Assembly: GCA_046563655.1 (NCBI GenBank)
Contig: CM102287.1
Coordinates: forward strand, 7,068,001 to 7,132,000
Length of the DNA: 64,000 nt
From: Yuukianura sp. NJ FZ-2021
Lineage: Eukaryota
Direction of reading: 5' to 3'
Position 1 is the first letter of the stretch; every line of letters begins with the position of its first letter. The notes under the pieces were generated by a model. That model had not been told where the DNA came from. It ran no database searches and saw nothing but the letters and a program-made list of their open reading frames with translations. This document shows positions 1 to 51,800 of the stretch, piece after piece. The translations under genes were made by a program, and so were the position numbers.

Positions 1-153
1 CTTTCCTTCCTTCACTGAAACTTCACATGATGTAGTAGGGATCCAAACACTGGGAACAAGAGTTGTTTGGAAACGAATTACACTTTTGTGTAATCGTTTG
101 AGGCTGAAGATGGTTGTAGCACTGGTTACCATGGAATCACTGGTAGAGGCCAT
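1..153 (-). CDS. Possible 5' end of an unknown gene running off the window (MASTSDSMVTSATTIFSLKRLHKSVIRF...)
   Basis: ATG at 153 on the minus strand opens 51 codons to the window edge with no stop. An upstream ttgtttttcag acceptor-like site lies near 205. No recognisable motif. Confidence 0.25.
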   Translation of the reverse strand, partial: MASTSDSMVTSATTIFSLKRLHKSVIRFQTTLVPSVWIPTTSCEVSVKEGK

Positions 154-800
154 GATTCACTGATAGAGTCACTGATAACTTGAAAAGGTTAATTTTAGAT
201 GATCTGAAAAACAATGTTCAGGAACTTTCAACCTGAACTTTTACTGAATTGAAATAAACAAAAGGGATCTGACCAAATCTGAGAAGTTCAGATCAATCAG
301 GGCTTTTAACCCTTGGTTTAATGAATGAAAGTTAATTAGAACAATTAATTGTTAAAGAGAGGTGAGAGCGAGTACTTAGACCTGTACTTGAAGTGACAAC
401 GTGCTAAGATCGACTTAGAGCTAACAGAGCAAAAGAGAACAAAAGAACAAATCTAACTGCGTAGATGAGGGAGGGGCTAAGATGCCTGAAAATGAGGGAA
501 TTTTGAACCTAAATTTAAGCGGTAATTTTAAACTAGAAAACCGAGTGGAAGCGGCTTGGGCAATTCCACAAACACCCTCTTTGCAAATTTTTAATTATTT
601 AGGAAATTTTTTATTTCAAATTTACTACAAGGAAGTCAAGTTTCTCTAGGACATTAAATGGACATTGTTATTTGTTAAATGAGATCTAGGTTAATTACTG
701 CAATGAAGAAATTATTCTTTTGCTGCTTCCTAGCTTTCATCAGTTTAATACTCTCGTACTTTCGGAGCTTGCGGTTTTAAAGTAAAACGAGGAATCCAAA

Positions 801-3800
801 ATGAAACTTTTGCTAAGATATTTCATCTTCAAATTTTTGTTACTTCCTTCAACTTTTGAACAAACTTGTGGTAAAGGCAAAGGTACAACATGGAATGATG
901 TAAGTGTATATTTTTGAATTCCAAAAAACTATAAAACGTTTTCTAAATTTCAAATTTCTATAATCTTTTCACCATCCAAAATACAATTAATACATCTATA
1001 TGACTATTGCATTACATAAACACTCAGATATGTATAATAGTTGAGCTTTATTTAGAAACTAAGTTACTTTTTCAGTGGTTAACCCAATCTTTCATAATGT
1101 TTAGATACATGTTGCGCTACCCAAGCAACATCCACTGACGTCGGATACGTTTGCGAACTATCCAGCATTTCTGAAGAACTTACCGGATGCTTTCAGCAAC
1201 ATCCGAGGGACGACCATTGCCGATATCATCCAGAACACGGCAGTCGGTTCCGAACTTCCATATGATGATTCTAGTTTCTTCAGCGCCTATCCATGCGAAG
1301 ATGGATTTGAACTCAAAGGCTACGGAGACGATTTTGTCCTTTGCTCCAGAATGAGCACGGTTGTTGAAAACCACTTCGAATATGGCGACAAGAAGTGTGT
1401 CAGAAACTACTGTGATTTGAAAGCACTCAACGAAATTGACCAACCTGGAGAAGGTTCGGTTGACGAAGATGTTGTGAACAACAATGTTCGAGGATCAGAA
1501 GCCGATCCAGAAACTTTGTGCCCTGCAAATTACACCGCTCCTTTTGATTGCTACAATGACAAAATGTAACGAAACATTCACTTTAGCATTAACTTTGAAG
1601 TTTTAAACGGTTTGTTCAATTTGTTTCACTTTTTTACATTAGAATTTAAAGATGTTTGTCTTGGTTTTAGTATATGTAGCGCCACCATTTGTACCAAACA
1701 TGGAATTCATGGCTTTGGAGAGAACGGATACGCATGTGCAACTAGCAGCGAGGATAACATTTTGCAATGTCTGGATTGCTTACCTGAAAAATCATGTCAG
1801 AGTTACCAATATGCTTGTGGTGTGTTAAGGATTACTATGCCTGGTGGAGGAGATGAGACTCAAGGCTTAATATGCTGTTCAAATACAGTTCTGGTAACGC
1901 TTTCACATTATTTAAGTGCAATTCTTGCATTCTAAATTCATTTTTAAATTTTGATTTCAGGACGTCGTGCTGGTACCCGTCACAGACCCAACGCACAGAA
2001 AACCGACTTATGGAGCTGAACAAATTAATGATGCCATTGCAAAGTTTTTTGAAGATTCTGGACGGGATGTTTTCACTGGAACAGTTTTCGATGACACTGG
2101 CGATGGTTTTGTATACTCCGTCTGTCCGCCAGACTACTTTGTCCAGGGTTTCAATGGAGAAACACTTTTTTGTACCAAGGAAGCCCTGAAAATTAACGCT
2201 AGCTATCATATTGGTAATGGAAAACAATGTCTCCAGCAGCTATGCTTCCCCGAGGTCCCAGAAACGGAATGTGTAAATTCGACTTCCAATTCTCCAAAGT
2301 ACTTTGTTTGTTCAAATGGCTACGTCACGAAGAAAGTAGATCAACAGAGCGAAACAGTATGTCAGGGTAGAGGAATTCCTAATGAAGAAAGAAGTTTATC
2401 CAATCAGGGTCTTTCGTGTGACCCAGACAAAGCTTGTCCGGGCAAGTCTAAACCATGCGGTGTCATACAATACGAAACTCCAGACGCTCAAGTTCCTGGA
2501 TTGGTGTGTTGCAATGCTGCACCGGTAAAAATACTTGCATTTAATTTTTTTAATAATTCAATTCAAAAGTGGTGTGATATTTTAGGTTGCAGCAGACCTG
2601 TACGCTTACATAAATGATCACAAGCAAGAATTTCTGTACTACCACACTCGTATGGCGGTAAGTCATGTTCGTATCAGCTAACAAAGTATTTTTCTTCAAT
2701 TTTTTTTCCTGAAATTCAGAAAAGTTTTGTTGTAAACGTTGTACTGGCAAGTATACTTAATTCAAAAGAATAAGTGTCAAACCTAATTAAGTATTTCTTA
2801 TCAGATGGAACGAAAAACGCTGACTGTTGAAAATGAAACAAATGAAGTGTCAATGCTGTTTAATGAAAAAATTCAAGAGGACATGCACCCAGACGAAATT
2901 TTGCAACAATATTTCGAGCCCCTTTATCAAAAGAAGATGTGGCTGTTCCAGAACTATTCCGATGGTTATTATCCAGAAACACTCATCATGTGCCCAAATA
3001 ACACCTACGTTCGTGGGGTTCAAACTAATCCTGCTGCTGGTGACGCCTACCAAATCGTATGTAGTGAACTAGCTCCATACATGGAGAAATATGAACAGAA
3101 AATGCTGAACACGGATTACATTTGTCCAAAATTGGTAGTAAATCCTAAACAGCATATTGGAATCTGCGGAGCAAATACTATACAGTTGGGATACGAGTAT
3201 TGCACAGACGGACACTACTTTGCTTTGACGTATGGGCTTCAAGGAGAAAGGTGCCATGAAAATCCTTGTGGAGAAAACTCTGCCGTCTGTGGTATCACTA
3301 ACCACAAATATTCGCATGAAGTAGTCATAATCTGTTGCGAGGTAAGGCATTTCTCAAATGTTGACTAACTTAACTAGTTACACTAAAACTCTAACAAGTA
3401 AGATTAAAAAACGTAACGCAACTTTTCTTAGCCGCATGTCCCAGAGCCCATTAAGCTTCCGGACGCATTGGATGAAGAGGGTAACCTCAATCATGAAGCT
3501 ATCAAATTTGTCTTGAATCGATTCGCTAGAGAATTTCAAGTAAGTATTCAATTACAAACTTTTGAAATATAAAAATTTACATGAGAATTTGTAATCCGAA
3601 TTACATATTCACTGTAATTTATTTTAACTTTTTAGCGTGAGAATTGCGGAAGACGTGGAACAGTCGAAGAAGTTATTTCGTATCATCGGGAAAAAGATGT
3701 AAGCAACTACATTTCATTCTTTCATACTTATTCAATTTATTTTCGAGATACATTGGTTACATGTAATAAACCATTACATGATACATTTGAAAAAAAATTA

Positions 3801-4635
3801 CTAGTGTTTCCACATTTCACAATCGACAGAATAGATATTAACAATAGATATTACACTAATTTTCGAAGAATGCTTGACATACTTGAAATAGCAAATATAG
3901 GACAAATTAGCTACAAATTTTTCACGTTCAAGCATTGCATTACGTTCACACACTGCTTACGGTTGACGTATTCGTGATGCAGAAATTTAATGAAATTAAT
4001 GAAAAAGTATTTTCGTATTACATTTTTAGAACCTTCCAAGAACACTATTTGCTGCCACAATGGACGACTACAGGTCAGCGCCAGTCAATGAAGCAATCAC
4101 TAGTGGCTCAACGATTCCAGATGCACTAAAAGCAGCTTCTGGACAAAACGGTTACGAGTATTGGCTGATCGATGAAAATTACGACATGTACTACAACCGA
4201 CAAGAAGCACTCCGCACTGTTCTATGCCCAACAAACATGTTTGTCCGTGGACATGCTCCGCCTAACACAATTCTTTGCTCAGAGGAAGTACCAATTTTTG
4301 GGAAGCAATACACAACAATCTTAGGTTTAGAATCCACTTGCACCAGTAAGACTTATGGGGGATTAGAGGATAAATTTAGCTGTGTACTTGGGCAAGATGA
4401 GTGGTCAACCTACGGTGTTGTCTTTTGTACTCGCGGATTTTTTGGACGCAACTCACCAAGTTATGACACTCATCCTGAATGCAACGACGGCTTTCAATGC
4501 TCAAACAAGGTGAACGGATCCAAGGTTTGTGGAATGCTTGTAGGAGAGCCTCACATAACTCCATTCTTTTTGAAAATTATATGTTGTAATGAGATTGTGC
4601 CTACTCTTGTGTCAATTCCATCAGAGGACGCTTGA
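801..4635 (+). CDS. Secreted ~910-aa protein with four tandem Cys-rich modules, family not recognised
   Basis: Exons 801-899, 1105-1565, 1671-1893, 1961-2524, 2586-2657, 2805-3341, 3432-3539, 3636-3698, 4030-4635. All introns are GT-AG and join in frame (2733 nt). N-terminus is hydrophobic (MKLLLRYFIFKFLLLP...). Four repeats begin C-P/E-x4-V/L-x-G...C-S/T and end C-G-x13-17-I/V-C-C. No TM segment. Confidence 0.85.
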
Positions 4636-4764: not shown

Positions 4765-6135
4765 CTAAATTTCATATGTAAACAAGCCATATGAAGTCCA
4801 GTAGGCAATATTGAACAAGAAAAAAATAGCTGGAAATCCAATTCTCGCAATTTTGTCTACCCGTTTTGCACGGTTTATTCTCATTTCATGTGAGTTTTTG
4901 GGCGTTTCAGCGTCTTCAACATCTTCATCACCGTCACTGCTGACATCAATGTGCGCAAGTGACCGAATCCGCTTCATGACCCCACCGACTGGTAAGGTCA
5001 ACCGGGTCATGTAATTGACCAATGCAAATTGCAATAGACCTCCAAATACCAAAAATTGACAAATGGCCGTCCAAACATCAAGGGCTTTAATGTACGACGC
5101 AGGCGGAACACTTCTGTTGATTCCATACGTTTGACTCACAATAGTCAGTATGGACGTTACTCCTAGGCTAACTCTAGCTTCAACTGCTGTTGGTTCGAGC
5201 CAAAACGACACCCAACTGACCAATACCAACATGGCACAAGGTATGTAAATTTGAATTAAAAAGAAACCAAAAGCCCGCTTCATTTTGACTTCTACGCCGA
5301 TACAACTGTAGGTCCCAGTAGATGTTTGGCTGCTACAGCCATGCGGAGTGTACGAAATGATACTAAATTGGGGCATTAGAAATACCCAACGTTGAACAGG
5401 GTTCCACGGCCGCCATCTAAGTACTACGTCCTTGGTAGTGTAACCATAGTTGGCCATTTTGAAGGGACAGATTTGGACATCCATGGGATAACTTCTAAGG
5501 TTCATAGGACAGGCCAGGAGAAGTGTAAATCGAAAACTTTGGAGAACAGTTCCATTGGGGTAGATCCGAGTAAAAATGTTTGGAGCAACCAGTTGATGCA
5601 GAATTCCATTCTTTTCGTTTTCGAAAAAGACGTCGGGCATCCAAATTCTGTTGTGATTGAGGACCTGCAAGTACGTGACGTGGTTTTCAATTTGGTCGTA
5701 GCGTAGGCGTGGATCTAACCAGCGTTGACGATAGACGACCTGCACGGTGTACTCCATTTTTGTGTCATCCACGTTTTCGATACCACGGAAATGGACGTCA
5801 ATGTCAATAAGAGCTGGGCCGGTTCCGTTGATACCTTTTGGACGAATCTGAAATTGACGATTCTTACTTTTATTGAAATAGGTCAAGTAAAGTTATTCAA
5901 TTCAAAACTGGATTTAAAAAAGATCAAGTTTTGGTTTTACTTTATTGTCATACGTAGATCCAAGAACTTCATCCAGAATTTGCGATTTCCAACTTTTTGC
6001 GTTGATGTCTTCGTCCGTGTATTCCTCCGTTATTGGTGTAGTCGGACTTAGCTGTAGTTGGCAACTGACGCAAAAATTGGAATGTTCAAACCAGAATGTG
6101 AATAGAGCCAACAATTTGCAAAGATTATGAATCAT
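4765..6135 (-). CDS. Divergent glutamate-gated chloride channel-like Cys-loop LGIC subunit A (~425 aa)
   Basis: Exons 6135-5941 and 5847-4765 (phase 0 intron). Signal peptide. Motifs IWMPDVFFENEK, Cys-loop CPMNLRSYPMDVQIC, loop C disulphide CSSQTSTGTYSC, M1 QIYIPCAMLVLVSWVSFW, M2 ARVSLGVT, M4 RVDKIARIGFP...FNIAYW. Confidence 0.93.
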
Positions 6136-6740: not shown

Positions 6741-7301
6741 TTAGAAAAGTAGTGAGAAAATAATCGAAAAGACAATAAACTTGAGTCCACGATTCATCGT
6801 CGTTCCACTTCCTGGGAGAGCGTGATTTTGCTGTCCGGTAGACACGAAATTGTCGTCATCTTTTTGAAACCGCGGTGTTGTTGGTACATCATCGTCTGCG
6901 CGACTTTTACAGTGATCCAAAGTACCGTCATCAAACTGATTTTCCCCGGCGTCAAACTCTTTACAATCACTTATGCCGAGTGCCGCGCAGCATTTGGAAT
7001 AAAATTCCCTAAACTTCTGTCGAAGCTCTGGAGTAAAAGTGTAAGTTTCCAGGGATTCATGCCAATCGATCAAACACTTATCGTTCGTGTTGAAAATTTC
7101 GCAGAAAAGTGTTCGCAGAGTCTTTTGGCTGCCGGCACGTGACTGCAGTTTGTTTGAAGATGACGCCTTTTGCATTCCCTTCTTCACAATTTCGTCCACT
7201 TTGACGTCTCCTGTCACACCATCAATCCAAATGCCGCCGATCAGAACCACCGTCACGATCGTCATCCAACGACGACTTGGAACTGTTCCTGACAAATCCA
7301 T
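6741..7301 (-). CDS. Small signal-peptide, 6-Cys, probably GPI-anchored surface protein (~186 aa), family member 1
   Basis: Single coding exon from ATG 7301, with a likely 5'UTR intron at about 7338-7430. Hydrophobic N-terminus (WMTIVTVVLIGGIWIDGVTG), Cys pattern C-C-CC-C-C, Thr/Asp linker, terminal hydrophobic tail (LKFIVFSIIFSLLF*) with no cytoplasmic residues. Confidence 0.75.
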   Translation of the reverse strand: MDLSGTVPSRRWMTIVTVVLIGGIWIDGVTGDVKVDEIVKKGMQKASSSNKLQSRAGSQKTLRTLFCEIFNTNDKCLIDWHESLETYTFTPELRQKFREFYSKCCAALGISDCKEFDAGENQFDDGTLDHCKSRADDDVPTTPRFQKDDDNFVSTGQQNHALPGSGTTMNRGLKFIVFSIIFSLLF

Positions 7302-7847
7302 TTCAAGCAAGCAAGTAAGCACTGAATCGAACCAACCTGTACATTTCATACAAAAATTACTTTCACGAAGGGTAAGTAATTCCGAGTTATCGGTAATTTG
7401 AACTAGTTCGAAGTAGCGTGTCACTCTTACCTGGCTGAAGTAAATTTGGTCTCACCGAAGTTCGTGGGAACTTAAATTTTCTGACCGACTGTTCAGTGTT
7501 CACTCGGTTGACGGACGGATTGCGAGTGCGTGGGTGGAGCAGCCAGCCAAGTTCATAACGTGAGTGAAGCAAACATTTGCTTTTGCAAAAAAAACCTTTT
7601 AAATTTGAATTAGGTTGTCATGGCAATTTTTCTAAATTTTTTAAATGAAAAAGTTTCGAAAACTAGAAAAAAAAACTGAATAATCGCCGAAATTCACTCT
7701 GTGAATTCTTTTACTGTTCTCAATCTGTCCTTAGAAGGTTCAAGATACAGTGGGGGACTTAAATATTCAAGTTTAATGCAAACCTAATTAATACAATAAC
7801 ACTGTAGTAAATTTAAGAATTGTTAAATGCGTCGTATATATTGGATT

Positions 7848-9223
7848 CTACTGAAGCATTCCATAAGATATCCAGTAGAAAATGTTAAAAGTGAAGAAAA
7901 TTCCTGGAAACAAAAGTCTGGATATTTTGTCAATTCTTTTCGCCTTTTCAATTCCAACTTTCAACTTTTCCAATTCCTCGTTCTCAAGGTCATGATGCAT
8001 ATCACGCCCAAACTCACGTTCTTTAAATTTTAGCGTTTGAAGTCTCTTTAACATTGGTGAGGTCAAATGAGATGTGTAATTTACGAGTGCAAATTGAATC
8101 AAACCTCCAAAAATCAAAATTTGGCAAATTGCTGTCCAAATGTCCAAAGCCTTGATATACGAAGCTTGTGGAACACTTTGATTAATTCCATACGTTTGGC
8201 TCACTATGGTCAAAATGGTCGTCACTCCTAGGCTCACCCTGGCTTCAACTGCTGTAGGTTCAAGCCAAAATCCAACCCAACTTACCAAAACAACCATTGC
8301 ACATGGAATGTAAAATTGAAGCAAAAAGAAACCAAATGCCCTCTCCAATTCAATTTGCAAAATGAGACAACTGAATTCCCCGACAGTGCTTGCCAAATTG
8401 CAAACATCGTTTTTGTAACTTATTATATGAAATTGCGGCATTCTAAAGGATTTGCGTTGTACTGGATTTTTAGCAGTCCAGTCCAGCGTAACATCTGAAG
8501 TAGAGTAGCCATAAGTACTGAGGATGAGTGGACACTTCTGGATATCCAGGGGATAAGCTGCAAGGTTCATTGGACAGGAAAGTAGCAAAGTGAATCGAAA
8601 ACTCTGCATGACGCGACCATCCGGAAAAATCCGAGTGAAAACGTTCGGAGTGACCAGCTTATGCATTTTCCCGGTTTTTTCGTTTTCAAAAAAGACGTCA
8701 GGCATCCAAATCCGTTCGGGATCGACGAGGTGGAGGAAACTAATGTTGGCTTGAATTTGGTCAAATTTGAGCCGTGGATCGAGCCAGTACTGCCGATAGG
8801 ATATTTGAGCAGTGTATTCCATTCGGACGTCATCAACGTTCTCGATACTACGTAAATAAATATCGACCGATACATGAACAGGTCCAGTACCGGTTTGACC
8901 TTCCGGTCGAATCTGCATGAAAAATTAGAAACAAGTATGGGAAGAAATATTAAAAAAAAAAAAGCTAAATTTAATTAGAGCTCATGTGTGGATGCATTGG
9001 TTTTAAAACAATTTAAACAAATATCGAAAATTACCTTCGTATTGTATCCTCTTCTAACCAAAATTTCATCCAAGATTTCCGACTTGCGATTACTAGCATT
9101 AATGTCTGTCAAATCTTCCACCCCTGCCATCCCTTCCTCCAAATGAGTTGAACCTGATGCCAGGTCATTCCAGGAAATTTTCAAAAGAACCTGAATTTTA
9201 AGCCACGTCCATATCCACTTCAT
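7848..9223 (-). CDS. Divergent GluCl-like Cys-loop LGIC subunit B (~417 aa)
   Basis: Exons 9223-9035 and 8912-7848, with the intron at the same position and phase as in subunit A. Cys-loop CPMNLAAYPLDIQKC, loop C CNLASTVGEFSC, and four TM helices clearly paralogous to 4765-6135. Confidence 0.93.
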
Positions 9224-13782: not shown

Positions 13783-16325
13783 CCAAGTCATGCTGCCCTT
13801 ATGCAACCGCAACCGTTAGCCCTGAATTCGATACTCTCCAGGTAGTACTTTGGTGGTTTTGAGCAGGTGAACATAAACGTTTAACTTTTAGAACAAACTG
13901 AGGAAAATGTGATTTAGGACAGATTCAACCATGGTGATGATGACTTGAGTGAAAAAGTGAGGAAAGCACGATGTTACCGTTGTGAAGACTAGAGAAACTT
14001 TGGCCATCATCCGTAAGTGCCTCCATTTGCTGCGACGTGTGTTGATGGGTGATGATGATGGGATCCTGAGAAGATTTTTCAAAATGGGCAGGATTTTGAC
14101 CCTTAGCCTTTATGGAGGCTGATTGAAATTGAGAAAACTAAGACTGGATTCTGGATATCGAGAACCAGTAAACCCAAAAATAGAAGTGGCCATTGAGTGA
14201 CCGAGATGAGTCTCTCGTATGCCATTATTCTCAGGCAATAAAGGAACAGGAAATGGGCTTCTGGACCCAACCTAGGAACGGGACATGTGAATTTTTAAAG
14301 TGGTTCGTGATGAGAGCCATTATGGGTTTTCAAAGTACTTTTCTGGATTTTGAGGGTGGTCAAAGGGGATTTTGAGCTTAGAAGTGGTTAGTAGGAAATA
14401 AGTGGAATTCCCACTAACTGGCTTAAGCCAGTTGAAGAGAATTCTTCTTTACGTTTTTCTAAAAATTTAGTGATTGAAGTAGCTCATCTTCCAAAAATAG
14501 ATCGAGTCGAACTCATTCAGTTTTGAAATATAGAAGAAGTTTTTCCATTACGGTGAGAATGGAAAGGCTGTGATTCGATGCAAAAAAAAAAAAAAGAAGA
14601 AAAAAAAATGAACAAACTTTTATTAAACTTTTAATTTTTGAAATCAAACTTTTCGTTTTGTGTTTTCGATGTTGATTGGCAGCAGAATGGATTAATTAAT
14701 ATTTTATTTTCAGTAAGCAGGAAAGGTTACATACGATTTTATTTGAGCGAAATGAGTTAATTTTTGAGTCTCAAAGTTTAAGTTTAGTGATTTTGATTAT
14801 CTTTTCGTTGAGAATGTTCTTATTTCATCGATGGGTTTACCGCCTTTCGTAGTCATTACTTCCGGTGTGACTCGTTTCGCCATGACATCCGACACTTAGA
14901 TTTCGGAGTTGTGAAGCGTAGAAAATGCATCGTGTCATGTCCGAAAAATGCTGTCAGTTTAGGTCAGAAAAAGCTTGTGATTTTGCGAAACGTTTAATGT
15001 AAGAAGTGATTAATGTGGATTTGCAGAATTCAAGGAAATAAAAACACGTCGTTTGGTTTTTGAACTTTTCAGATGATGAAAATTGGAAGATTTTTTTAAT
15101 TTTTTAATTAGTTGTTTGAGCTCGGTTTACCAACGGTTGTCCAGCGGCGAATCACGATCCTGATGCTGTAATTCCATCGAAACCTATGAAAAAAATATTT
15201 GTGCTGTTATATTTTTGCAATGTACAGGAATTTTGAAAGTTCGTTGCACTAGGAGTAAATTCATGATGAAGCGCAATGACACGAGCTTTAGCTTCAGAAA
15301 CTTTAGACTTCGGGTGGATGGACACAGCAAGAAAAAGTAAGAAGTGAAAGTTTTCTTTCCCCTGCTATGACCAGAGGGAAAGAAAATCTTTTTATGAATT
15401 CTGCCGTGGTAAGGGCTTTCATTCATGCGTTTGGTCTCTTGACTCGTGAAAGAAGTAAAAGAAAGTGTGTACTTGGGACCTACTTGCTAAAGGGCTAAAG
15501 GTGGAGTAGCAGAAGTGGTAGAAAGTAAAAGTGAAAGTTTATTTGCCCTTGTTTTTCTCCCTTCCTTCCGTTTTGTCTATGCCTCAACTTGCCTCTTTTT
15601 TTAACTTTCTCTCATGGACTTTCCCGATTCTTGCTCAGTTGGTCGTAAAAGGATTTGTGGCCAAGAGCACAGGAGAACTTGAGTCGAGAGATGAAAACAA
15701 CGTTTTTTTACCTTCTTAAGAATGAATAACTGGAGGAGGTCTGCCATGAATAAGCAACTGTTCCACAAACTTTTGTGGGTCCATGGAGTAGGAGAAAGCT
15801 TAACCAAGTCGATCTACACTTGAAACGTTGGTTTTTTTTTCTAGGATTTTTTTTGCACTTAAGTCAGTTCGGAAAGGTTTGAAATTTTCAAGTTTTGTAG
15901 CGTGCTCACTTTTTGCGCTTGAATGAAAACTGGACTTGGAGAAAGTTTTAATCTGGTTTTCATTTTCTGTTAGGTTCTGCGGCAAAGTCAACAAAAATTG
16001 AAAAAAAAAAAAATGTCTCATGTCCACTGTAGTTAAAAAGAAAAACCCGAAAATCTCCTTAGCATCTCTATGGTGATCTGATGAGAACCACTGTAGATTC
16101 AAGCAATATGTTTGTTAGGCTAAAAGCAAAAACAATTAAATTGTTCAATTATAAATTATTACAACTTGAAATTTAAAATTTAGTGGGCTGCCCACGGTTG
16201 GTGGATTATTTACTAACCCTCGGACTGTCAGGAATTTACCTTAATTTTTAACTTAAAACAGCTTAATTTTCATTTTTGAGGTCATACTAACGTCCTAATA
16301 ACCTCCAAAAAGAAATCACAGCGAA

Positions 16326-16901
16326 ATGGGGTTACTACTACGAAGTGACATGGCACTCGTCACTGTATTTTCAGCAGTTCTGGTTCTTCATGCATGTTAT
16401 GCAGCAGATCTGTACGAATCGTGCAGCGATAACGACTGCGTCATTGACAGAACGCTGAATAGCGGTGCATTCTACGAAGAACTGGAGTGGAGATGGATGC
16501 TGTTGGAATGTAAACCAAACCAAAGTTTAAGTGAAAGAGAACAGGGTTTTCTGAGGCTATCGGAATACTTCGAAAGAATCGCCGCCGGAATTCATTACCT
16601 GATCGACTTGCCATTTGGTGTTTATCCCTATCTCCACGTGGTTTGCGAAGAACTCTATCACGTATGCTGTATGGGACCGGTATACGACAACAAAACATTA
16701 ATTTGCGACGAGGGATTTCGAAAGTATTCGGCTGAATCGCGACTTAAAAAATTGCGACCATCGGCCTTCTTCACAATTACATCGACTAGGACTACTCCCA
16801 TGCCTTTTGAGTTCAACAATTCCGCCAGCGCTCTTGGACTGTGTAGGGATTGTCAAATCACGGCGCAAGTTGGTTTTCTATTCCTCGTTTGGGTGCATTG
16901 A
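16326..16901 (+). CDS. Small Cys-containing, probably GPI-anchored surface protein (191 aa), family member 2
   Basis: Intronless ORF with signal peptide, Thr-rich stalk, NNSAS omega-like site and hydrophobic C-terminus. Clear paralogue of 42582-43133, including similarity in the flanking UTRs. Confidence 0.85.
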   Translation: MGLLLRSDMALVTVFSAVLVLHACYAADLYESCSDNDCVIDRTLNSGAFYEELEWRWMLLECKPNQSLSEREQGFLRLSEYFERIAAGIHYLIDLPFGVYPYLHVVCEELYHVCCMGPVYDNKTLICDEGFRKYSAESRLKKLRPSAFFTITSTRTTPMPFEFNNSASALGLCRDCQITAQVGFLFLVWVH

Positions 16902-42581: not shown

Positions 42582-43133
42582 TCAATGCGTCCAAACGAGT
42601 AGTAGAAGACCAACTTGAGAAGTGATTGGACACGGTCCAAGAGTGCTGGCGGAATTGTTGAACCCAACCGGTGTGGTCGTTGACGTGGTCAAGAATGCAG
42701 ATGGTCGTAATTGTTTAAGTCGCAATCCAGCCGTGAACTTTCGATATCCCTTGTCGCAAGTATACGTTTTATTGTATCGAAATCCCAGACAGCACTCTTT
42801 GTAAAGGTCCACGAAGACTGCATGAAGATAGGGGTAAACATCCAACGGCAAGTAGATTAAATTGTAGTTCCCAGTAGCGATGTCGTCAAACAAAACCTTT
42901 TGCCGCTGAAAACCATCTTCTCTTTCAGCCTGAGTTTGGTTTGGCTTACATCCATACACGTTCCAGAAGGACTCCAGTTCTACGTAGAATGCATCGCTAG
43001 TCAGGCTTCTATCTACGACGCAGTCGTTATCGCTGCACGACTCGTACAGGTCTGCTGCATAACATGCATGAAGCACCAGAACTGCTGAAAAAACAGTGAC
43101 GAGTGCCAGGTCACTTCGTAATAGTAACCCCAT
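42582..43133 (-). CDS. Small Cys-containing, probably GPI-anchored surface protein (183 aa), family member 3
   Basis: Intronless paralogue of 16326-16901; 40 of the first 42 aa are identical. TTSTTTP stalk, NNSAS, hydrophobic tail. Confidence 0.85.
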   Translation of the reverse strand: MGLLLRSDLALVTVFSAVLVLHACYAADLYESCSDNDCVVDRSLTSDAFYVELESFWNVYGCKPNQTQAEREDGFQRQKVLFDDIATGNYNLIYLPLDVYPYLHAVFVDLYKECCLGFRYNKTYTCDKGYRKFTAGLRLKQLRPSAFLTTSTTTPVGFNNSASTLGPCPITSQVGLLLLVWTH

Positions 43134-45846
43134 TTCGTTTGGGTTTTTGTTTGGAGTATGGCCTGATTTTGTTGCACGTTTTCAAATAGGAAGTTCTCAA
43201 AAAATGCTGGCATTTTGGAATAAAATTTTTTAATCGTTTACGTTTGACGTAGGCGGATACTCACAATTAAACTTTTTTTTGTTTACTGTTGTTGTTTCAT
43301 AATAAAGAGGTTGTCTGCATCGATTGTTGTTTGTTGACAAACATTGAAGGAAATGGTAGGTAACTTTGTTTGACTAACGTCACTGGTGAACTGGTTTTCG
43401 AAAACAAAGACACTTCAGCAACACGCTCAAGGTAAAGGGAAGATAGAATTGTGAGATTTTGAACTACGTACTTAAAACAAAATTATTATTATTATTATTT
43501 TTTTTTATAAATGTCTGAAATACACAATTTCTGAATGTTTTGAATAACTTTTGCCAGAAGGGTTTTTTTTCTTTGATTTCTTGGAAAAATTTTTAAAAAT
43601 TTAGCGAAACATTAGTATAACGTAAACCTGCCAGTGGCAGGTTGAAAATTTTTGAATTTGAGAAATTGAAACTTATGGCTAAATAAATATATAGTTTTTA
43701 ACAAAGTGAAAAACTTCATCCATCGCAGCCTGATACTTGTTACGCGTGTTTTCGTAACCCCAAATGGATATGTTGTAAATATATTTTAACTGCAACATCG
43801 ACCATTTACTTCGTACACACGTCTAGCCTTCACGAAGTGATCGGACCATCTTACAAATCACTTTATTGTCAAAAATGCGTTCCAAAATTTTAACATTTTC
43901 GTTTAACCTTTGTTCATTTCCTTCAAAAACAAATTACATTTTTTCTTGAAGAAGACATTGTAGAACGTTTGATCGACTAATCACAAAACAGAAAATAATA
44001 ACAATAACAAAAGTGTTTACGAGAACGGAAATCTACGTCAAGGTTTGGTATTATATTTTCTAATTGCGTAAATCAAAAAACGTGCTAAATTGTAAGAAAA
44101 AGTGGACAGACAATGGGTAGGATAACAAACAAAAATGCTGTCTTCAAACAGGTTTCCGTAATGGAACGTCACCATTCTACTTCAAAATTTCTTGTTCGCC
44201 TGACAGGGGTAATATAAATTCAATTCGTTTTCAGACACTACAACTAGTGGATCACCGCAATAATACGTCCTCACTTGTGTAATTTTTATCAAGGAACAAG
44301 TTCCTTCTTCGAATTCTTACTTAAAAAACCAGTTACAACGTAAATAAGGTTTTCTAATATTTAGAAAACACTTTCTACTTTTTTGTCTGTGAGCTACGTT
44401 TGTGCTACGGATTTCGAAAGTTGATATCGTTAAAAGGTTTTATTTGAATCTGCGAAGTTTTGCAAAGTTAAGGTGTGAGCGAAATTTTGGTACAAATAAA
44501 TTAAAACACACTTTGATCTTGGCAAATAAAAACAACAGAACCAAAAAATAGGTGAGATACTTTTTTTTTAAATTAGTATAAGTAAACTACTGTATATTTT
44601 AGTGCGCGATATACGCCGATAAATAGGGTACTAGCGTGGAACCCACATATAGTACACCTTTATATTGGTAAAACGTTGAAAGTGGACAAATGGCCGAACA
44701 GGCTAGTGCTAGCGTGGACTGATTCCAGTTTTCCATTACATTTTTCGATTCCATTACAACCAGTTTCGGTTTATTAGTGGAAAAATTTGGTTGCCAAAAA
44801 ATGCTCTGACGTCCACTAAACAGGTTTATTGGACGTCAGCAAATCTCCTACGGATGATAAATGCATCCAGTCCTAGGAGATTTGCATATGGAATTTCTTG
44901 TTTTTTTTTTCCGTTGTTGTTGAAGGTTTTCTCAAATTGCGCATTATCGGACTAACGACTCCAAAAAAGTGTTTTTTAAAATGATTTTCAGTGTAATAAA
45001 TTTTGATACACTATAATTTGGTCTAACGAAGGTTTCACATAACTTGATTTCGCATATGCCTTTTGTACTCTTCTTATGTCACGCTTCAACATTACAACAG
45101 TGACCATTAGCATACAGCTTTTAAAGTAGTAGAGCTACCTAAATTTTAGTTCAAAAATTAATGAAGGTTCGACATTACGTATTATACTTAAAGACCTGGG
45201 ATGATCTTCGTCATCAGTATTTTTTCCCAATTTTTAGTTCTCATTCAGTCTATTAAATTTGACCATATAATGGTGGTTAACCTTTAAGGTGGTCCATCTG
45301 AAGCGAACTTTTAAAAGTAATTTTCCTTGTTCCTTCGCATGATGAAGATCAAATTATTTTCTGGAAAACAACAAAAAACTTGCGAAACGGCAACAAAATC
45401 CTAACTTCCTTGCTAAAAGTTGTTTTAGTCACTTTTCGACTTTGAAGCACAAAGAAAAAATACTCAGATTCTCCTACATATAATTTATAACAAGATTTGG
45501 CAACAATATTATCAACTCTTCTACGTTGTGCTTTGCAGTTCGTCTAAACAAAATTAAATTTCTGGTAAACTCGAAAACTCAAATGTCAACGTTTTTTACA
45601 TTCCGAACTCACAGAGCAAGAGACAACAACGACACCATATACTTTACATCGATCAATCTTATTAACGAAAACTGATTGACAGAATAGATGATCTGCGTCG
45701 GTTGTCAATTTCAATTACGAAAAGTTAACGCGGAAAAGTAGCCTTTCTAAGAGTTATAAGAAATATGCGTTATTAAAGAATTATAAGTTTAAAAAAAATA
45801 ATTCCTTATTTCAGGAACAAGAGCGCAAACTTAAAGAAGTGCCAAA

Positions 45847-48800
45847 ATGGATGTGGCAGTGATTGGGATGAGCTGCCGATTCCCGGGCGCTGACAACTTG
45901 GATGAATTTTGGTCCAATCTGGTTTCTGGAAAAGACTCAGTCACCAGCACACCAAAGGAAAGATGGTACATGGGACATGACCTTGTGGCTGGTACATTTT
46001 GTTGTTCTGTAACCTTGACTCAACAATTTGTTTTTGCACTTTGCTAACCGTGATTTGTGCTTAGGTTACCTAAAATGTCCGCTGGATGAGTTTGATGCTA
46101 ACTTTTTCAACATCAGTCCAAAAGAAGCTACTTACATTGACCCACAACATCGGTAAAACACTCGAACTAAAAGCATAAATTGTTGACTTCTGAAGCTGAA
46201 TTTTGAAAACCAAAAAAAAAAAAAAATTGGAAAACGTGTAAAGCGCAAGGTTAAAGCTTACTAAATTCTTATCTGCGCGAAATCTTTCTGCTGTGGGAAA
46301 GGAAAATTTGCGAGGTCAGTTCCTAAGTTTAAAAACTTTATCTATTAATTTTTTTTCTCTACTTTCAGGTTATTCCTGGAAGTGAGTTGGGAAAGTCTCG
46401 AGAATGCTGGAATTCCCGCAACGTCACTCAACGGAACCAAAACTGGCGTTTTCTTGGGCATCGGAAGTGACGAATACTTCCGAACGCAACTCGACGCCAC
46501 AGAAGACACAATTTACAAGATCGTTGGAAATTCCATCAGTGCTGCCACTGGCCGTCTCTCGTTCTTCTTAAATCTTCTTGGACCGTCAATTCCTATTGAA
46601 GCGACATGCGCATCCTCAGCAGTCGCCATACACTTGGCTTGTGGTTCCCTCCGAGGTGGGGAGTGTACAATGGCCTTGGCTGGCGGTGTTAACGTCCTCA
46701 TCAGTTCGGATTCAACTTATCCATCAGCACTGATTTCTCCGCGGTGCCGGTCATTTGACGCTTCAGCAAGCGGGTTCTCACCAGCCGAAGGTTGTGGAGT
46801 CGTCGTGCTCAAGCTTTTAAAAGAGGCCCTTAGAGACGGAAATGAAGTACTCGGGGTCATTCGGGGGTCATACGTGAACAACACTGGAAAAAGTACGAGT
46901 TACGGTACGCCGAGAACTTTAAGTGAAGAAATTACAATTCGTGAGGCCCTGAAAGCAGCTGATGTGAACCCGTTAGACGTTAGTTACGTCGAAGCACATG
47001 TAGGTGGAACTCAAATTGGCGATCCAGTTGAAGTCAAGGCTATTTCAAATGTCTTCGGGTCCAGGAATCGAACGTCTCCATTGGTCCTAGGAGCTTTCAA
47101 AACAAACATTGGGCACCCAATGGCTGCTGCAGGAGTCGCTGGCATGATCAAGATGCTACTCTGTTTGAAAAATCGAACCATCCCGCCAAATTTACATTTG
47201 AACCAACTCCATCCCGACATCAACTTGGAACCAATTCCAGCCATTTTGCCGTCAAGTCCGATTCCATGGAAAAGCTCTAAATCTTTAATTGGAGCTATCA
47301 ACTGCTTTGGAATTACCGGCACCAACGTTCATATTATTGTTGAAGAACCGCCAAAAGTTGAAGTTTCCAAGATTCAAAATTTGAATTTGTCCGCCACCAA
47401 ACATCCTCTCCATCTGTTGACCATTTCAGCCAATGATCAAGTCGCGTTAGAAAAACTTCGAAATAAATATCAAGAAGCGCTGGACTCCGATCCAAGTCCT
47501 GATTTGACCAATTTTACATTCAGTGCTAACACAACTCGAAGTCATTTGTCCCATCGCGTCGCTGTTACCGGCAGCTCATGCGCTGAACTCAGCCACAAGC
47601 TATCGACACTCAACTACGTAACTGGAACAGTACAGGGCATGCGCCAACCCATAGTGTTTCTGTTTACTGGTCATGGATGCCAGTACTTTGGAATGGCTCG
47701 AGGATTATACGAAACAAGCCCCATCTTTAAACAAGTTTTTGATTCTTGCAGCGTCGTTTACCGCAACAATCTTGGAGTCAGCTTAGAAAAGTTAATTTGG
47801 AATGGCGATCCAGCTTCGGCGCCAACTTTAAATCAAACGAAATACGGTCAACCAGCAATTTTTGTGATCGAGTACTGTTTGTACAGACTTTGGACAGAGT
47901 TGGGCATTCGGCCGGACTATGTTCTCGGACACAGTATTGGAGAATTCGCAGCATGCGTTGCTGCTGGAATGGTGTCCTTTGAAGATGGAATGAAACTGGT
48001 CTGTTGTCGCAGTATTTTGATTGATACGCTTCCCGAGGGACGAATGGTTGCCGTTGGCGCTGGAATTGACAAAGTGAATGGCCTCATCGAAAATTTTCAA
48101 ATGCTAAATTCCTCGGCGTGGTTAGATGTCGCTTGCTGCAATTCGATTGACCAAACTGTTGTATCAACTGATCCAGCTACAGCGGAAAAATTCAAAGAGT
48201 TTTTGAACCAACAAAGTCCGGCGGTAAAGTCAAAAGTGCTGCCGTCTCTGAACGCTTTTCATAGTCGCACTATGGAGCCAATTCTGGCTGAATTCGAAAG
48301 AATTGCAAACGAAATCAAAGTAAAAGAGCCAACATGCAAGTATGTCTCGGGGATGCTAAGCAGGGAGATTCAACCGTCGGAAATCAACGGTACTTACTGG
48401 AAAAATCACTGTCGAAATACCGTTTTGTTTTCAAAAAGTATCGACCTCTTGCTTCAACAAGGCTGCAAAGTTTTTCTAGAAGTTTCACCACAACCAATCC
48501 TCCTTAACTTTGTCATGTCAAACAACGTCAACGGTTCGGAGATCACTGCATGTCCATCACTACGAAGCTCCCAAGATGGTTGGACAACTGTATTGTCTAG
48601 CTTGGCCAAATTGTACGTTTCCACCAGCGCTGAAATTAAATTTGAAATTTTGAGCCCGGGAGCTCAAAGAATCCAGTTGCCAAACTATACGTTCAATCGC
48701 AAGAAATGCTGGGCTGCTCCGAATCCAAACCGTGGTCACCTTGCAGGTCCTGCGCAAGCGCAGTTCCATAGTCTGCTTGGATGGAAACTCAATTTGGCCA

Positions 48801-51800
48801 TGAGCTCTGATCTACGCTTTTACAACTACTTGTCCAGTGGCTCCACAGGATATGTTCAAGACCACACGATTCTGGATCACGTCATTGTTCCAGCTGCTTG
48901 TTACGTCGAGATGCTGCTGTCGCTTGCACGTAAAGAATACGGAGTCATGTATCCCGTAATTGAGAATCTGAACGTCTTCCGCGCATGCGTCCTTGACGAA
49001 AACATGAAACAAATTCAGACCAAAGTGGAATACGAAGGGCCGAACTTACTCGTAACATTTTTTAGCGAATCAGAAGAGGGCGAGTGGCTTCAGAATGTTC
49101 AAGCTACACTAAATCTAGAAGCTGCTCCGCAAGTACTACCATCAGCAGTCCCAATTGCCGAAATTGAGCAAATTAAAGCCGAGTGCTCAACGAAAATTGA
49201 TGTAGACGAGATGTACGAACGACTAGACATGTCCGGTATATCAATGGGTCCATCGTTCCGAAGCGCCCGGAAACTGTTCATGAGTCCCGACAAGTCAAAA
49301 ATGCTAGGGACTCTTGAGCGAGTGATTACGGCTGAAGGAGAATTCAGTTTTCATCCAATCGGAGTCGATGCTATTGTCCAGTGTTTCTGGGAGTACAAGA
49401 TGTGTCGTCTGGAAGAAATTCCATTTGCACTTCCAGTTGGAATCAACAAGTTCGTTTGGTACGGTGGAGACAATGCGACATTGCCAGATGAAATGTACCT
49501 TTACATTCCAGATGAAGATCACGGAGTAGTGTTTTCAGCGCAAGGTCAAATTTTTGCTGAAATTGAAGTACTCACCGTGCTTCATAGCACGTCAACTGCC
49601 TTCCTAAGGTCAATCACTCCAGGAGAAAAACTTCCTCAATTTATTTCCAAAGATTGGGTTCCACGAGAAACTGGAATTTTGGATGGTACGATACCGGCGG
49701 AAGATCTGACGACTTCTAATGAGCTGTTGACTCACACCGAAGTCAACCTTGCGCTGGAAAAAATTTCACAATATTATGAAGACAGAGTCCCACTGGAGAA
49801 ACTTTATGAGCAGCTAACCTCCCTGTACATTACGAAAACACTTTTACAATACGGTTGGAATCCAGTACCGGATATGCCGTTTGGACTGGAAAGTATCGTT
49901 AACGGTACAAAGTCAGTAGACGGTCGAACCATTGCAAAATTCCTAGACATCCTCAGTGAAGATGGACTTTTTGTTAAAACTGATGCTGAGCATTGGACGC
50001 TTGTTAAGAGACTGCTGGGAGTTGATGAAGTTACGGAAGAAATTCAGAAATTAGAAGCAGCAGTAGTTGAAATTAACCCCGGGGCGGGTATCAACTGCGA
50101 ACCGGAATTCGGTTACTTGAAACAACTTGGCGGAGTTCTACTTCCAGTTTTGCAAGGTCAAATGGATCCACTAGAGGCATTGGCTACAATCAAAAATTCT
50201 CCTGCCATGTTGAAACTCGAAAACACTGGAAGAGGTGAACTCTACACTCATCTGTTGGCGTCCGTTTTCGAAAATGTTTTCAAAAACTACACTGAAAAAT
50301 CTCCAAGCAAAAAGTTGCGAATTCTTCAAATCGGTACATTGGATCCAGCGGCATCAAAGGGCATTTTTGACGTGTTACAAAAACTCGCGGTTAAATTTGA
50401 ATTTACAATTGCAACTCAACTTAGTGCTCAAAAACCGCATCAATTCGCAGATCTAAATGTGATTTCGAAGACACTCGATATCCAGAAAGATCCAAAAGTT
50501 CAAGGCTTCCAACCATCGAGTTACGACATTGTAATTGCAGTTGAGGTTCTGCATGTAGCTGAAGACTTAAAATCAGCACTTGAAAACGTACGCCATCTCC
50601 TGGCGCCAAACGGCTACCTATTCCTTGGTGAACTGTTTCAAGAATACAGAGACTACGCAATTTCTTATGCCCTGCTCAGCAGTTACTGGAAACTTCAAGA
50701 TTCCAGAGGATTTGTCACAGCTGACTCCAATAGTTGGATCGATCTGCTCAACCAAACCGGTTTTGCCGGCACTGTTCCATTAACAATACAGGATTGCCCG
50801 AAAGGCCTCTTTGTTTCCCGAGCTGATGCGACAATGCGACTTTACAGGCCGTTTCAGACGAACTTGTCGGCATCCGATCCAGCATGGATAATATTTGGCA
50901 TGGAAGGAGATTTGCTCCAATCAGGACTCGGGAAACTGTTGAAGGAAGTTGGCCGCAATGTTTTCTATGTCGTGGAAGGTCTACGGTTTGACAAGGTCAA
51001 CGATTCTTTTACGGTCAACCCCAAGCGAGCTTCAGACTTTCAGCAATTGTCACATGTTTTGAAAAACTATGAAATTGAAGGAATATTATATTTCTGGGGA
51101 ATGTCAGCTCGACAAGCAGAGTTAGGCACTACTGCGCAGTTGCGGAAAATTGAAGAAGTTGTAACCACCGGATTTCTCAATGTACTCAAAATCCGAATTA
51201 ACAATGAGTGGACTTCGAAAATATTTTTGGTCACTTCTGGAGCGGAAGAGGTAAATCCAGCTCAAGGAACGCTTTGGGGAATGCTTGAAACTTACTTCAA
51301 TGAATACCAAGAAGCAACCGGAATGGGCATTGACGTTGACCAAGGGGCAACCCAGGATGAACTTTTGACCAACTTTGTATTCAGCGTCCTCTGGGATACG
51401 CCGAATGAACGTGGCGTTCGGTTCCAAAACGGTAAAATGGAAGTAGCTCGACTCCATGCCTATGATTCTACACTTCCATTGGATGAAATCCTGCTTCCGA
51501 AAGCGAAACAATTCAAAATGACTGATCCGACATCGTTGACATTTGGCAGCATTGAACCCGCAGCTGATTTGTCCAGCACTTTGGAAATTGCTGTCAGAGC
51601 CGTTGGTTTAAATTTTCGCGATTTGCTGGTCTGCAACGGCATGCTCGAAACGACACATCCGGAGTCAGTGGGTCTCGAGTTTGCCGGAATTGTAACAAAC
51701 AGTGGCACGTCAAACTTTGCAGTGGGTGATCGGGTTGCTGGTTTGACATTGTCCGGTGCATTTGCCAGTCACATAGTGGTAAATCCGCAGCTGATATTTC

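What the first reader, a model, noticed from the sequence alone, without database searches (positions are those of the whole stretch)
801..4635. Unrecognised secreted protein built from four divergent Cys-rich modules, spread over nine exons
Seen: the scattered ORFs at 1351, 1612, 1967, 2805 and 4060 join into one 910-aa reading frame. It has four modules opening CEDGFELKG / CPPDYFVQG / CPNNTYVRG / CPTNMFVRG and closing ACG..GLICC / PCG..GLVCC / VCG..IICC / VCG..IICC. Seven of eight introns are phase 0, and modules 1-3 each end a few codons before a phase-0 intron, which is the footprint of exon-level tandem duplication. Inference: a new disulphide-rich beta domain. The CPxxxxVxG..C / CG..CC pattern loosely recalls resistin-head, dermatopontin and VMO-I-type repeats. 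High divergence between modules suggests a multivalent lectin, toxin or immune-recognition protein.
Basis: partly seen in the sequence, partly recalled or inferred. Interest (0 to 1): 0.7.

Follow-up and report, generated by a model that had tools for sequence, protein, structure and literature searches.

The report
Four-module VMO-I-like secreted arthropod protein
A real nine-exon gene of a small arthropod, probably a springtail, encodes a secreted protein made of four disulfide-locked modules that look like heavily remodelled copies of the egg-coat protein VMO-I fold, too changed for family databases to recognise and lacking its usual acidic loops.

Summary
The nine exons give a 910-aa frame with intron phases 0,2,0,0,0,0,0,0. 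Two full paralogues on the same contig (64% and 34% identical) have the same nine exons and phases, and 42 Cys are invariant. No transcript evidence could be obtained. The four modules are homologous: 10 invariant Cys, and leave-one-out HMM scores of 24-43 bits against at most 15 for shuffles. Pfam and PDB sequence searches find nothing significant. Among 1.84 billion protein representatives only two unnamed single-module fragments are true relatives.

The module is probably not a new fold. Several weak lines point to a VMO-I-type beta-prism I: the C-x5-V-C-G...CC third repeat, a global profile match to the genome's own VMO-I genes (score 31-33 against at most 11 for shuffles), and a low-confidence model whose top 18 structural neighbours are beta-prisms (best Z 4.0). 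The VMO-I DDT and WGxW motifs are absent (0 of 14 modules), and a fifth Cys pair and a helical N-cap are added.

Best reading: a lineage-restricted, tetravalent beta-prism matrix or glycoprotein binder under purifying selection (dN/dS 0.33). A toxin is unlikely. New variant of a known kind; interest moderate.

The parts
801..899 (+). Exon 1: start codon and probable signal peptide; phase-0 intron follows
   Evidence: ATG aligns with g2's ATG at the end of a conserved ~210-nt upstream block; hydropathy max 11-aa KD 1.67 here, 2.5 and 2.58 in the paralogues
1105..1565 (+). Exon 2: module 1 N-cap and first half (first core Cys at 1294), with an acidic low-conservation insert; followed by the only phase-2 intron
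1671..1893 (+). Exon 3: second half of module 1 (middle C-x3-G-I-x-G-F repeat and closing CG...CC, ending at 1878)
   Evidence: MAFFT placed this piece on the first repeat, showing the internal repetition
1961..2524 (+). Exon 4: module 2 (12 Cys; core 2123-2512), symmetrical phase 0-0 exon
   Evidence: external relative P0001, E 1.4e-23
2586..2657 (+). Exon 5: 24-aa Cys-free linker, 72 nt in all three paralogues (probably helical, inferred)
2805..3341 (+). Exon 6: module 3 (10 Cys; core 2991-3338), the most VMO-I-like module, phase 0-0
3432..3539 (+). Exon 7: 36-aa Cys-free linker, 108 nt in all three paralogues
3636..3698 (+). Exon 8: 21-aa linker, 63 nt in all three paralogues
4030..4635 (+). 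Exon 9: module 4 (10 Cys; core 4225-4587), short tail and stop; no transmembrane segment evident
   Evidence: external relative P0002, E 3.4e-21
215..574 (-). LTR of a young Pao/BEL-type retrotransposon inserted 226 nt upstream of the ATG; not part of the gene but may affect its expression
   Evidence: two identical 360-bp LTRs, 5-bp target duplication, Pao peptidase PF05380 in its ORF

Best explanation
One secreted, acidic (~98 kDa, pI about 4.7), probably N-glycosylated protein made of four tandem disulfide-locked domains. Each domain derives from a VMO-I-type beta-prism I whose three hairpins were shortened, losing the DDT-x-x-N loops and WGxW turns, and which gained a fifth Cys pair and an N-terminal beta-alpha-alpha cap. 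One module exon was duplicated at phase-0 boundaries to give (M1,M2)(M3,M4); the whole gene was then duplicated twice more, with a fourth truncated copy. It most likely works outside the cell as a multivalent binder or cross-linker of glycoproteins in an extracellular coat or matrix (egg envelope, gut or body secretion), each module with its own long-fixed partner, not as a toxin or a variable immune receptor. Shown: gene structure, module homology, paralogues, purifying selection, motif sharing and loss against VMO-I. Inferred: secretion, beta-prism fold (about 65-70%), disulfide pairing, ligand and tissue.
For: Gene. Module homology: 10 invariant Cys in 14 of 14 modules; held-out modules score 24-43 bits against shuffle maxima of 12-15. 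VMO-I link: (a) the 20 own-genome VMO-I domains aligned (of 28 matches over cut-off) all carry C-x5-x-C-[GA]-phi, and 10 of 14 modules do; Cys7-Cys8 spacing is 6 in the 8 VMO-I spacings printed and in modules 1-3; 18 of the 20 VMO-I and 14 of 14 modules end in CC. (b) Global hhalign of module core against VMO-I: score 31-33, probability 65-76%, E 3e-6 to 8e-6, against at most 11 in 40 column shuffles per setting, including shuffles with Cys fixed. (c) AF2 model of module 3 (pLDDT 55.9): 23 of 48,161 chains reach Z>=2 and the top 18 are beta-prism I proteins (jacalin-type lectins, ZG16/WGA16, VMO-I at Z 3.5, rmsd 3.8, 95 aligned; Cry domain II, VCC, RbmC), most aligned over about model residues 40-179 (fold labels partly recalled, Vip3A row only probable); both Z>=2 rows are also beta-prisms. 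(d) ESM features list DERM (0.89) and VOMI (0.81) clusters (lead only). Role: no transmembrane or enzyme domain seen; dN/dS 0.33 and below 1 in 18 of 18 windows; VMO1 binds glycans and ovomucin in an egg coat (PMC9363672 and PMC4904793, passages).
Against: Every fold signal is weak. Best Z is 4.0, below the 7-8 that unrelated models typically reach in that search. Foldseek gives nothing (best E 0.62). The module-4 model (pLDDT 44.6) gave no beta-prism row. Local hhalign covers only 13-24 columns in most runs (probability 30-78%). A VMO-I HMM scores only 2 of 14 modules above the shuffle maximum (15 against 10.1 bits). The middle blade is unresolved: pLDDT is under 50 at residues 92-130 and two Cys mappings are possible. 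The VMO-I comparison was chosen after seeing the fold search and was controlled only against shuffles, not against other Cys-rich families such as dermatopontin or resistin. The function is by analogy only: the acidic loops thought to form VMO-I's sugar pocket are absent, and there are no expression data.
Confidence: 0.55

Rival explanations
1. The module is a new disulfide-rich alpha/beta fold that only reuses the short C-P-x-x-x-phi-x-G...phi-x-C hairpin also found in VMO-I, dermatopontin and resistin; the beta-prism signal comes from that shared motif biasing the profile and AF2.
For: No Pfam or PDB sequence hit. Low model confidence. The linker between the sixth and seventh invariant Cys is only 4-9 residues in modules 2-4, short for a full prism blade under one Cys mapping. 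Module 4 gave no prism match. ESM ranks DERM above VOMI. The conserved helical cap has no counterpart in VMO-I.
Against: The match is not limited to one hairpin: the double-Cys third repeat with terminal CC, its position last in the domain and the first repeat are shared in order. Global profile scores are about three times the Cys-fixed shuffle maximum. The top 18 structural rows belong to one fold and mostly span the whole core.
Confidence: 0.25
2. A tetravalent beta-prism lectin used in innate defence (agglutinating or coating microbes), with sugar sites rebuilt on other loops.
For: Most top structural neighbours are lectins. VMO1 itself is moderately antibacterial (PMC4904793, passages). 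Module 3 keeps an Asp in its first long loop in all three paralogues.
Against: DDT-type loop in 0 of 14 modules against 16 of 20 VMO-I. The protein is acidic, unlike cationic VMO1. Copy number is low, and there is no dN/dS window above 1.
Confidence: 0.2
3. A toxin, or the receptor-binding part of a toxin.
For: Beta-prisms serve as aiming domains in Cry and Vibrio cytolysin (rows). The same genome has a tandem VMO-I gene with a long Ser/Thr-rich tail that looks aerolysin-like by eye (untested).
Against: The three full genes consist only of four modules and short linkers, with no room for a pore-forming or catalytic domain. They are under purifying selection.
Confidence: 0.05
4. The locus is not one expressed gene: it is several small genes, or this copy has been silenced by the retrotransposon upstream.
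For: No transcript data were available. A young LTR element sits 226 nt before the ATG. The signal peptide is the weakest of the three.
Against: Three paralogues keep nine in-phase exons with no stop, even across 4-10 kb introns in g3. Modules 2-4 have no start-plus-signal exon of their own. The ~210 nt upstream of the ATG that are conserved with g2 lie downstream of the insertion.
Confidence: 0.08

Closest known systems
VMO-I / VOMI family (Pfam PF03762; hen VMO-I, PDB 1VMO), beta-prism I
   Same: Secreted; three internal C...G...C repeats; third repeat with C-x5-phi-C-G and terminal CC; weak global profile and structural match. The genome has 28 canonical VOMI matches over cut-off, so a source family is at hand.
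   Different: No PF03762 hit; DDT-x-x-N and WGxW motifs absent (0 of 14); hairpins 10-20 residues shorter; 10-15 Cys instead of 8; a ~60-aa beta-alpha-alpha cap on every module; four domains in tandem. Two consecutive VOMI domains are reported in rotifer BPBT lectins (PMC8878817, passages) and seen here at C5:8919-8921k.
Jacalin-related and ZG16-type beta-prism I lectins (heltuba, ZG16p, WGA16, PPL3A)
   Same: Top structural neighbours of the module-3 model (Z 3.2-4.0); tandem prism arrays are known (Parkia lectin row).
   Different: 2-9% identity in those rows; these lectins lack the Cys scaffold (recalled); no sugar-binding motif was identified.
Dermatopontin family (PF14704)
   Same: C-P-x-x-x-x-V-x-G...C hairpin (motif recalled); ESM feature neighbours at 0.89 with DERM on 20-21% of members.
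   Different: No Pfam hit; the D-R-x-W-x-F motif (recalled) is not seen; no DERM candidate in this genome (uninformative by the tool's own warning).
Resistin head / PCSK9 C-terminal modules
   Same: C-x5-V-x-G and terminal CC (recalled); multi-module layout in PCSK9.
   Different: Only non-significant Foldseek rows (E 3.8, rmsd 14-18), and not among Z>=2 rows; the module here is about twice as long.
DUF-B 10-Cys repeat of Aquatic-clade PLDs (PMC6299612, passages)
   Same: Unclassified domain with 10 conserved Cys in 1-4 repeats.
   Different: About 70 residues against 115-160 here, and fused to a phospholipase; sequences were not compared (they are in a supplement I did not open).

Membership tests
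VOMI (PF03762) | Pfam HMM score over the 25-bit cut-off | tested here: not met
   No VOMI hit for 6 exon pieces or 12 paralogue module rows; none of the 30 PF03762 genome matches lies in g1, g2 or g3; own VMO-I HMM best 15 bits
VOMI (PF03762) | Eight Cys in three repeats, third repeat C-x5-phi-C-G...CC | tested here: met
   Closing CG...CC in 14 of 14 modules, exact C7-C8 spacing in 10 of 14; first repeat in 14 of 14; mapping of the middle pair is ambiguous and there are extra Cys
VOMI (PF03762) | Acidic D-D-T-x-x-N loop in each repeat | tested here: not met
   0 of 14 modules against 16 of 20 own VMO-I
VOMI (PF03762) | W-G-x-W / W-x-x-W turns | tested here: not met
   0 of 14 modules against 15 of 20 own VMO-I
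VOMI (PF03762) | Three repeats of about 53 residues (PMC9363672, passage) | tested here: not met
   Core is 114-161 aa with unequal repeats; Cys spacings 15-22 and 14-18 against 30-36 and 25-29
beta-prism I fold | Three Greek-key sheets around a pseudo-three-fold axis | tested here: inconclusive
   Module 3 model (pLDDT 55.9): top 18 of 23 rows are prisms but Z is at most 4.0; module 4 model gives no prism row; Foldseek none
beta-prism I lectins | Carbohydrate binding | not testable with these tools
   Needs a glycan array
Dermatopontin (PF14704) | Pfam HMM hit | tested here: not met
Dermatopontin (PF14704) | Profile-profile similarity | not tested
Resistin / PCSK9 CHRD | Six-stranded jelly-roll head | tested here: inconclusive
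   Non-significant Foldseek rows with a low-confidence model

The most novel reading that the evidence does not exclude
The module (helical cap plus ten-Cys core) is a previously undescribed extracellular fold, or a prism rebuilt so far that one blade is replaced, confined to a narrow arthropod lineage. Its four copies have kept distinct identities across species and form a fixed tetravalent binder with four different specificities.
Probability: 0.25. Interest if true: 0.62.

Novelty: new variant of a known kind. Interest (0 to 1): 0.42.

Why it matters
It gives an apparent orphan gene family a likely origin: a common egg-coat or lectin scaffold (VMO-I) remodelled past the reach of Pfam, multiplied by exon duplication and then frozen. 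If the fold is confirmed, it is a natural test of what a VMO-I prism does without its acidic loops, which bears on the still uncertain physiological role of VMO1 (PMC9363672, passage). It also shows that some 'lineage-specific' secreted proteins of soil arthropods are disguised members of known folds. It does not, on present evidence, open a new biological system.

Tried and rejected
RNA run search: no RNA holder listed, so no reads were laid; this is not evidence either way. Pfam: 0 families for 6 exon pieces; only two chance hits at E 0.085 and 0.9 among 12 module rows. PDB by sequence: none for module 4; four coronavirus spike rows at E 0.48-2 for the module profile, treated as chance. Word-index protein searches: none among 4,667 and 478 candidates; only P0001 again among 507. 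P0003 (E 2.8e-8) rejected as a tandem repeat matching 23 profile positions. JGI metagenome scans: 102 and 133 pattern matches, none confirmed. ESM Atlas for module 4: no usable hit. Module-4 model: 19 rows at Z 2.0-2.8, no common fold. My early idea of a C-type-lectin-like fold, from the beta-alpha-alpha-beta start, found no supporting row or 72 and was dropped. Resistin and PCSK9 were not listed in the VIA searches. Earlier scan notes: no look-alike by sequence or by words. Paper searches listed no description of such a family; most subscription journals are not covered. Supplements were not opened; those of PMC6299612 (DUF-B alignment) could bear on the comparison. No complex prediction was run, because no binding claim is made. 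A signal-peptide-like uORF at 703-780 was rejected as the start: it is not conserved in g2, and I found no in-frame splice from it.

Full report
Observation. Of 324 combinations of candidate GT-AG sites, only two give an open frame from 801 to 4635: 910 aa, or 907 aa with a 9-nt shifted acceptor. Phases are 0,2,0,0,0,0,0,0 and the 910-aa form has 49 Cys. The window lies at G000:C5:7068001-7132000 in a 98.7-Mb, 22-contig animal genome. Neighbours are two ligand-gated channel genes, a trypsin domain and a type I PKS. I read the organism as probably a springtail; this is inference from gene content, and unchecked earlier notes on the same genome say the same.

The gene is real at the DNA level. 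Searches of the own genome with four exon pieces found a paralogue about 30 kb upstream (g2) and one 3.4 Mb away (g3). g2 gives 889 aa and g3 882 aa, each with nine exons, all GT-AG, the same eight phases and no internal stop; g3 does so across introns of up to 10.5 kb. Identity is 64% for g1-g2 and 34% for g1-g3, with 42 invariant Cys. g1-g2 dN/dS is 0.33 over 875 codons and is below 1 in all 18 windows of 50 codons, the highest being 0.75 in the signal region. A fourth copy on C3 keeps only exon 1 and part of exon 2, is frameshifted, and lies in a 1,305-bp inverted duplication. Further searches with P0001, P0002 and g3 module 3 found no more copies; these counts are lower bounds. No transcript evidence was obtainable. 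A young Pao-type LTR element with identical 360-bp LTRs and a 5-bp target duplication sits 226 nt upstream of this copy's ATG, just outside the ~210-nt upstream block conserved with g2, so the expression of g1 in particular is open.

The modules are homologous. Twelve modules from the three genes plus two external ones share 10 invariant Cys. An HMM built from any three module types scores the fourth at 24-43 bits, against shuffle maxima of 12-15 in 900-1,200 shuffles. Modules 2 and 3 are single phase 0-0 exons, module 4 starts at a phase-0 junction, and module 1 is two exons flanked by phase 0. In a tree of the 14 modules they group by position, not by gene, as (M1,M2) and (M3,M4) with 100/99 support and a long-branch warning. 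Module duplication therefore came before gene duplication. Each module is a ~55-65-aa Cys-poor cap, predicted beta-alpha-alpha-beta in both models, followed by a 114-161-aa Cys core.

Distribution. A profile of modules 2-4 (9 rows) against 1.84 billion representatives returned three proteins. P0001 (module-2-like, E 1.4e-23) and P0002 (module-4-like, E 3.4e-21) are unnamed single-contig Logan predictions, each the size of one exon; P0003 is a spurious repeat. They fall inside the module-2 and module-4 clades, so module identities are conserved in at least one other organism. Three word-index searches, two metagenome scans, Pfam and PDB sequence searches added nothing. The family is narrow, but eukaryotic multi-exon genes are poorly represented in these collections.

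What the module is. MAFFT placed the second half of module 1 on the first hairpin, showing that a C-x(3-5)-phi-x-G...phi-x-C unit recurs within the module. ESM features of module 3 listed DERM clusters at 0.89 and a VOMI cluster at 0.81, which is lead level only; module 4 gave nothing. The module-3 model (pLDDT 55.9, pTM 0.54) matched 23 of 48,161 chains at Z>=2. The top 18 are beta-prism I proteins, mostly aligned over about residues 40-179, including VMO-I at Z 3.5, rmsd 3.8, 95 aligned and 13% identity, the highest identity among those 18. The fold labels are partly from titles and partly recalled, and the Vip3A row is only probable. The best Z, 4.0, is below what unrelated models often reach; Foldseek found nothing significant; and the module-4 model (pLDDT 44.6) gave no prism row.

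I then tested VMO-I directly. The genome has 28 PF03762 matches over cut-off among 30 listed. I used 20 of them, leaving out short or split matches, and completed 18 with their last exon; a 13-row profile of these genes finds 1VMO at E 7.5e-30. Global hhalign of the module core against them scored 31-33 (probability 65-76%), against maxima of 6-11 for 40 column shuffles per setting, with or without Cys fixed. Local mode scored 28-30 over 13-18 columns against maxima of 14-19 (similar). Plain HMMs are weaker: a VMO-I HMM puts 2 of 14 modules above the shuffle maximum, and a module HMM puts 7 of 20 VMO-I above it, best on the divergent L068 at 18.6 against 9.5 bits. The third repeat, C-x5-phi-C-G followed by terminal CC, is shared. 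The DDT loop (16 of 20 against 0 of 14) and the WGxW turn (15 of 20 against 0 of 14) are lost, and the hairpins are shorter by about the length of that loop. The middle blade can be mapped two ways: C5-C6 by motif, best in module 1, or C4-C5 by spacing, where C5 to C7 is 21-24 residues in modules 3 and 4 and 21-25 in VMO-I. The controls were shuffles only, and the hypothesis was picked after the fold search. I put a VMO-I-derived beta-prism at about 65-70%. It fails VOMI membership on HMM score, DDT loops, WGxW and repeat length, so it is a VMO-I-like variant, not a member.

How it probably works. All three proteins have a hydrophobic N-terminus, no later transmembrane stretch, 4-8 N-glycosylation sequons and pI 4.7-5.3. 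There is no enzyme or pore-forming domain. VMO1 is described as a three-sheet prism with four disulfides at the base and a negative cavity suited to sugars; it binds glycans, heparin and ovomucin in the egg coat, and its main role is uncertain (PMC9363672 and PMC4904793, passages read). VOMI transcripts are reported in Folsomia candida and assumed there to serve egg production (PMC2688526, passage). By analogy the protein is most likely a tetravalent binder or cross-linker in an extracellular coat or matrix. Low copy number, purifying selection and fixed module identities fit a structural or housekeeping role better than an arms race. Loss of the acidic loops means a sugar ligand cannot be assumed. 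This step is inference.

Novelty. Six paper searches listed no description of this family; I read passages of five papers and no supplements. Tandem VOMI domains are known (two in rotifer BPBT lectins, PMC8878817). A four-fold array of capped, loop-less, ten-Cys VMO-I-like domains was not found. Verdict: a real gene and an undescribed family, probably a new variant of a known fold, with a 25% chance of a new fold; interest 0.42.

Noticed in passing
window 1-574 and G000:C5:7062191-7068574: Young Pao/BEL-type LTR retrotransposon (1,794-aa open frame, identical 360-bp LTRs, 5-bp target duplication) directly upstream of the gene; a related element (73% identical) lies at C5:7044001-7050460.
   Followed up: partly
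G000:C5:7052539-7061440 (L006, L007): Satellite of a 570-bp unit, about 16 copies at over 99% identity, between g2 and g1.
   Followed up: no
G000:C5:8919203-8922440 (L071, L072): Probable single gene with a signal-like start, two tandem divergent VOMI domains (Pfam E 6.6e-10 and 6.9e-7) and a ~550-aa Ser/Thr-rich tail whose ends look aerolysin/ETX-like by eye; Pfam finds nothing in the tail. Its second VOMI domain is the closest VMO-I to the modules studied here.
   Followed up: partly
G000, contigs C1, C3, C4, C5, C7, C10: Expanded VOMI family: 28 matches over cut-off, with tandem clusters on C1 and divergent copies on C3; most have an intron inside the third repeat.
   Followed up: partly
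G000:C3:7198506-7201203 (L029): Truncated, frameshifted fourth family member (exon 1 and part of exon 2) duplicated as a 1,305-bp, 99.5% identical inverted repeat; recent rearrangement or assembly fold-back.
   Followed up: partly
window 4765-5892 and 7848-8924 (minus): Two tandem Cys-loop ligand-gated channel genes with most of the coding region in one long exon, 69% identical in DNA.
   Followed up: no
window 46349-53863 (+): 2,504-aa open frame of a reducing type I polyketide synthase (KS, AT, DH, methyltransferase, ER, KR, ACP) in an animal genome.
   Followed up: no
window 16302-16901 and 42582-43181 (+): Two similar ~190-aa Cys-containing ORFs with signal-like starts and hydrophobic ends, 26 kb apart; no Pfam hit for the first. 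The ORF at 6741-7451 (minus) is also without a Pfam hit.
   Followed up: no
window 703-780 (+): 25-codon uORF that reads like a signal peptide, 21 nt before the main ATG; not conserved in g2.
   Followed up: partly
G000:C5:7036292-7037852 (L004, L010): Two tandem EF-hand-like genes immediately upstream of g2 (label by eye).
   Followed up: no
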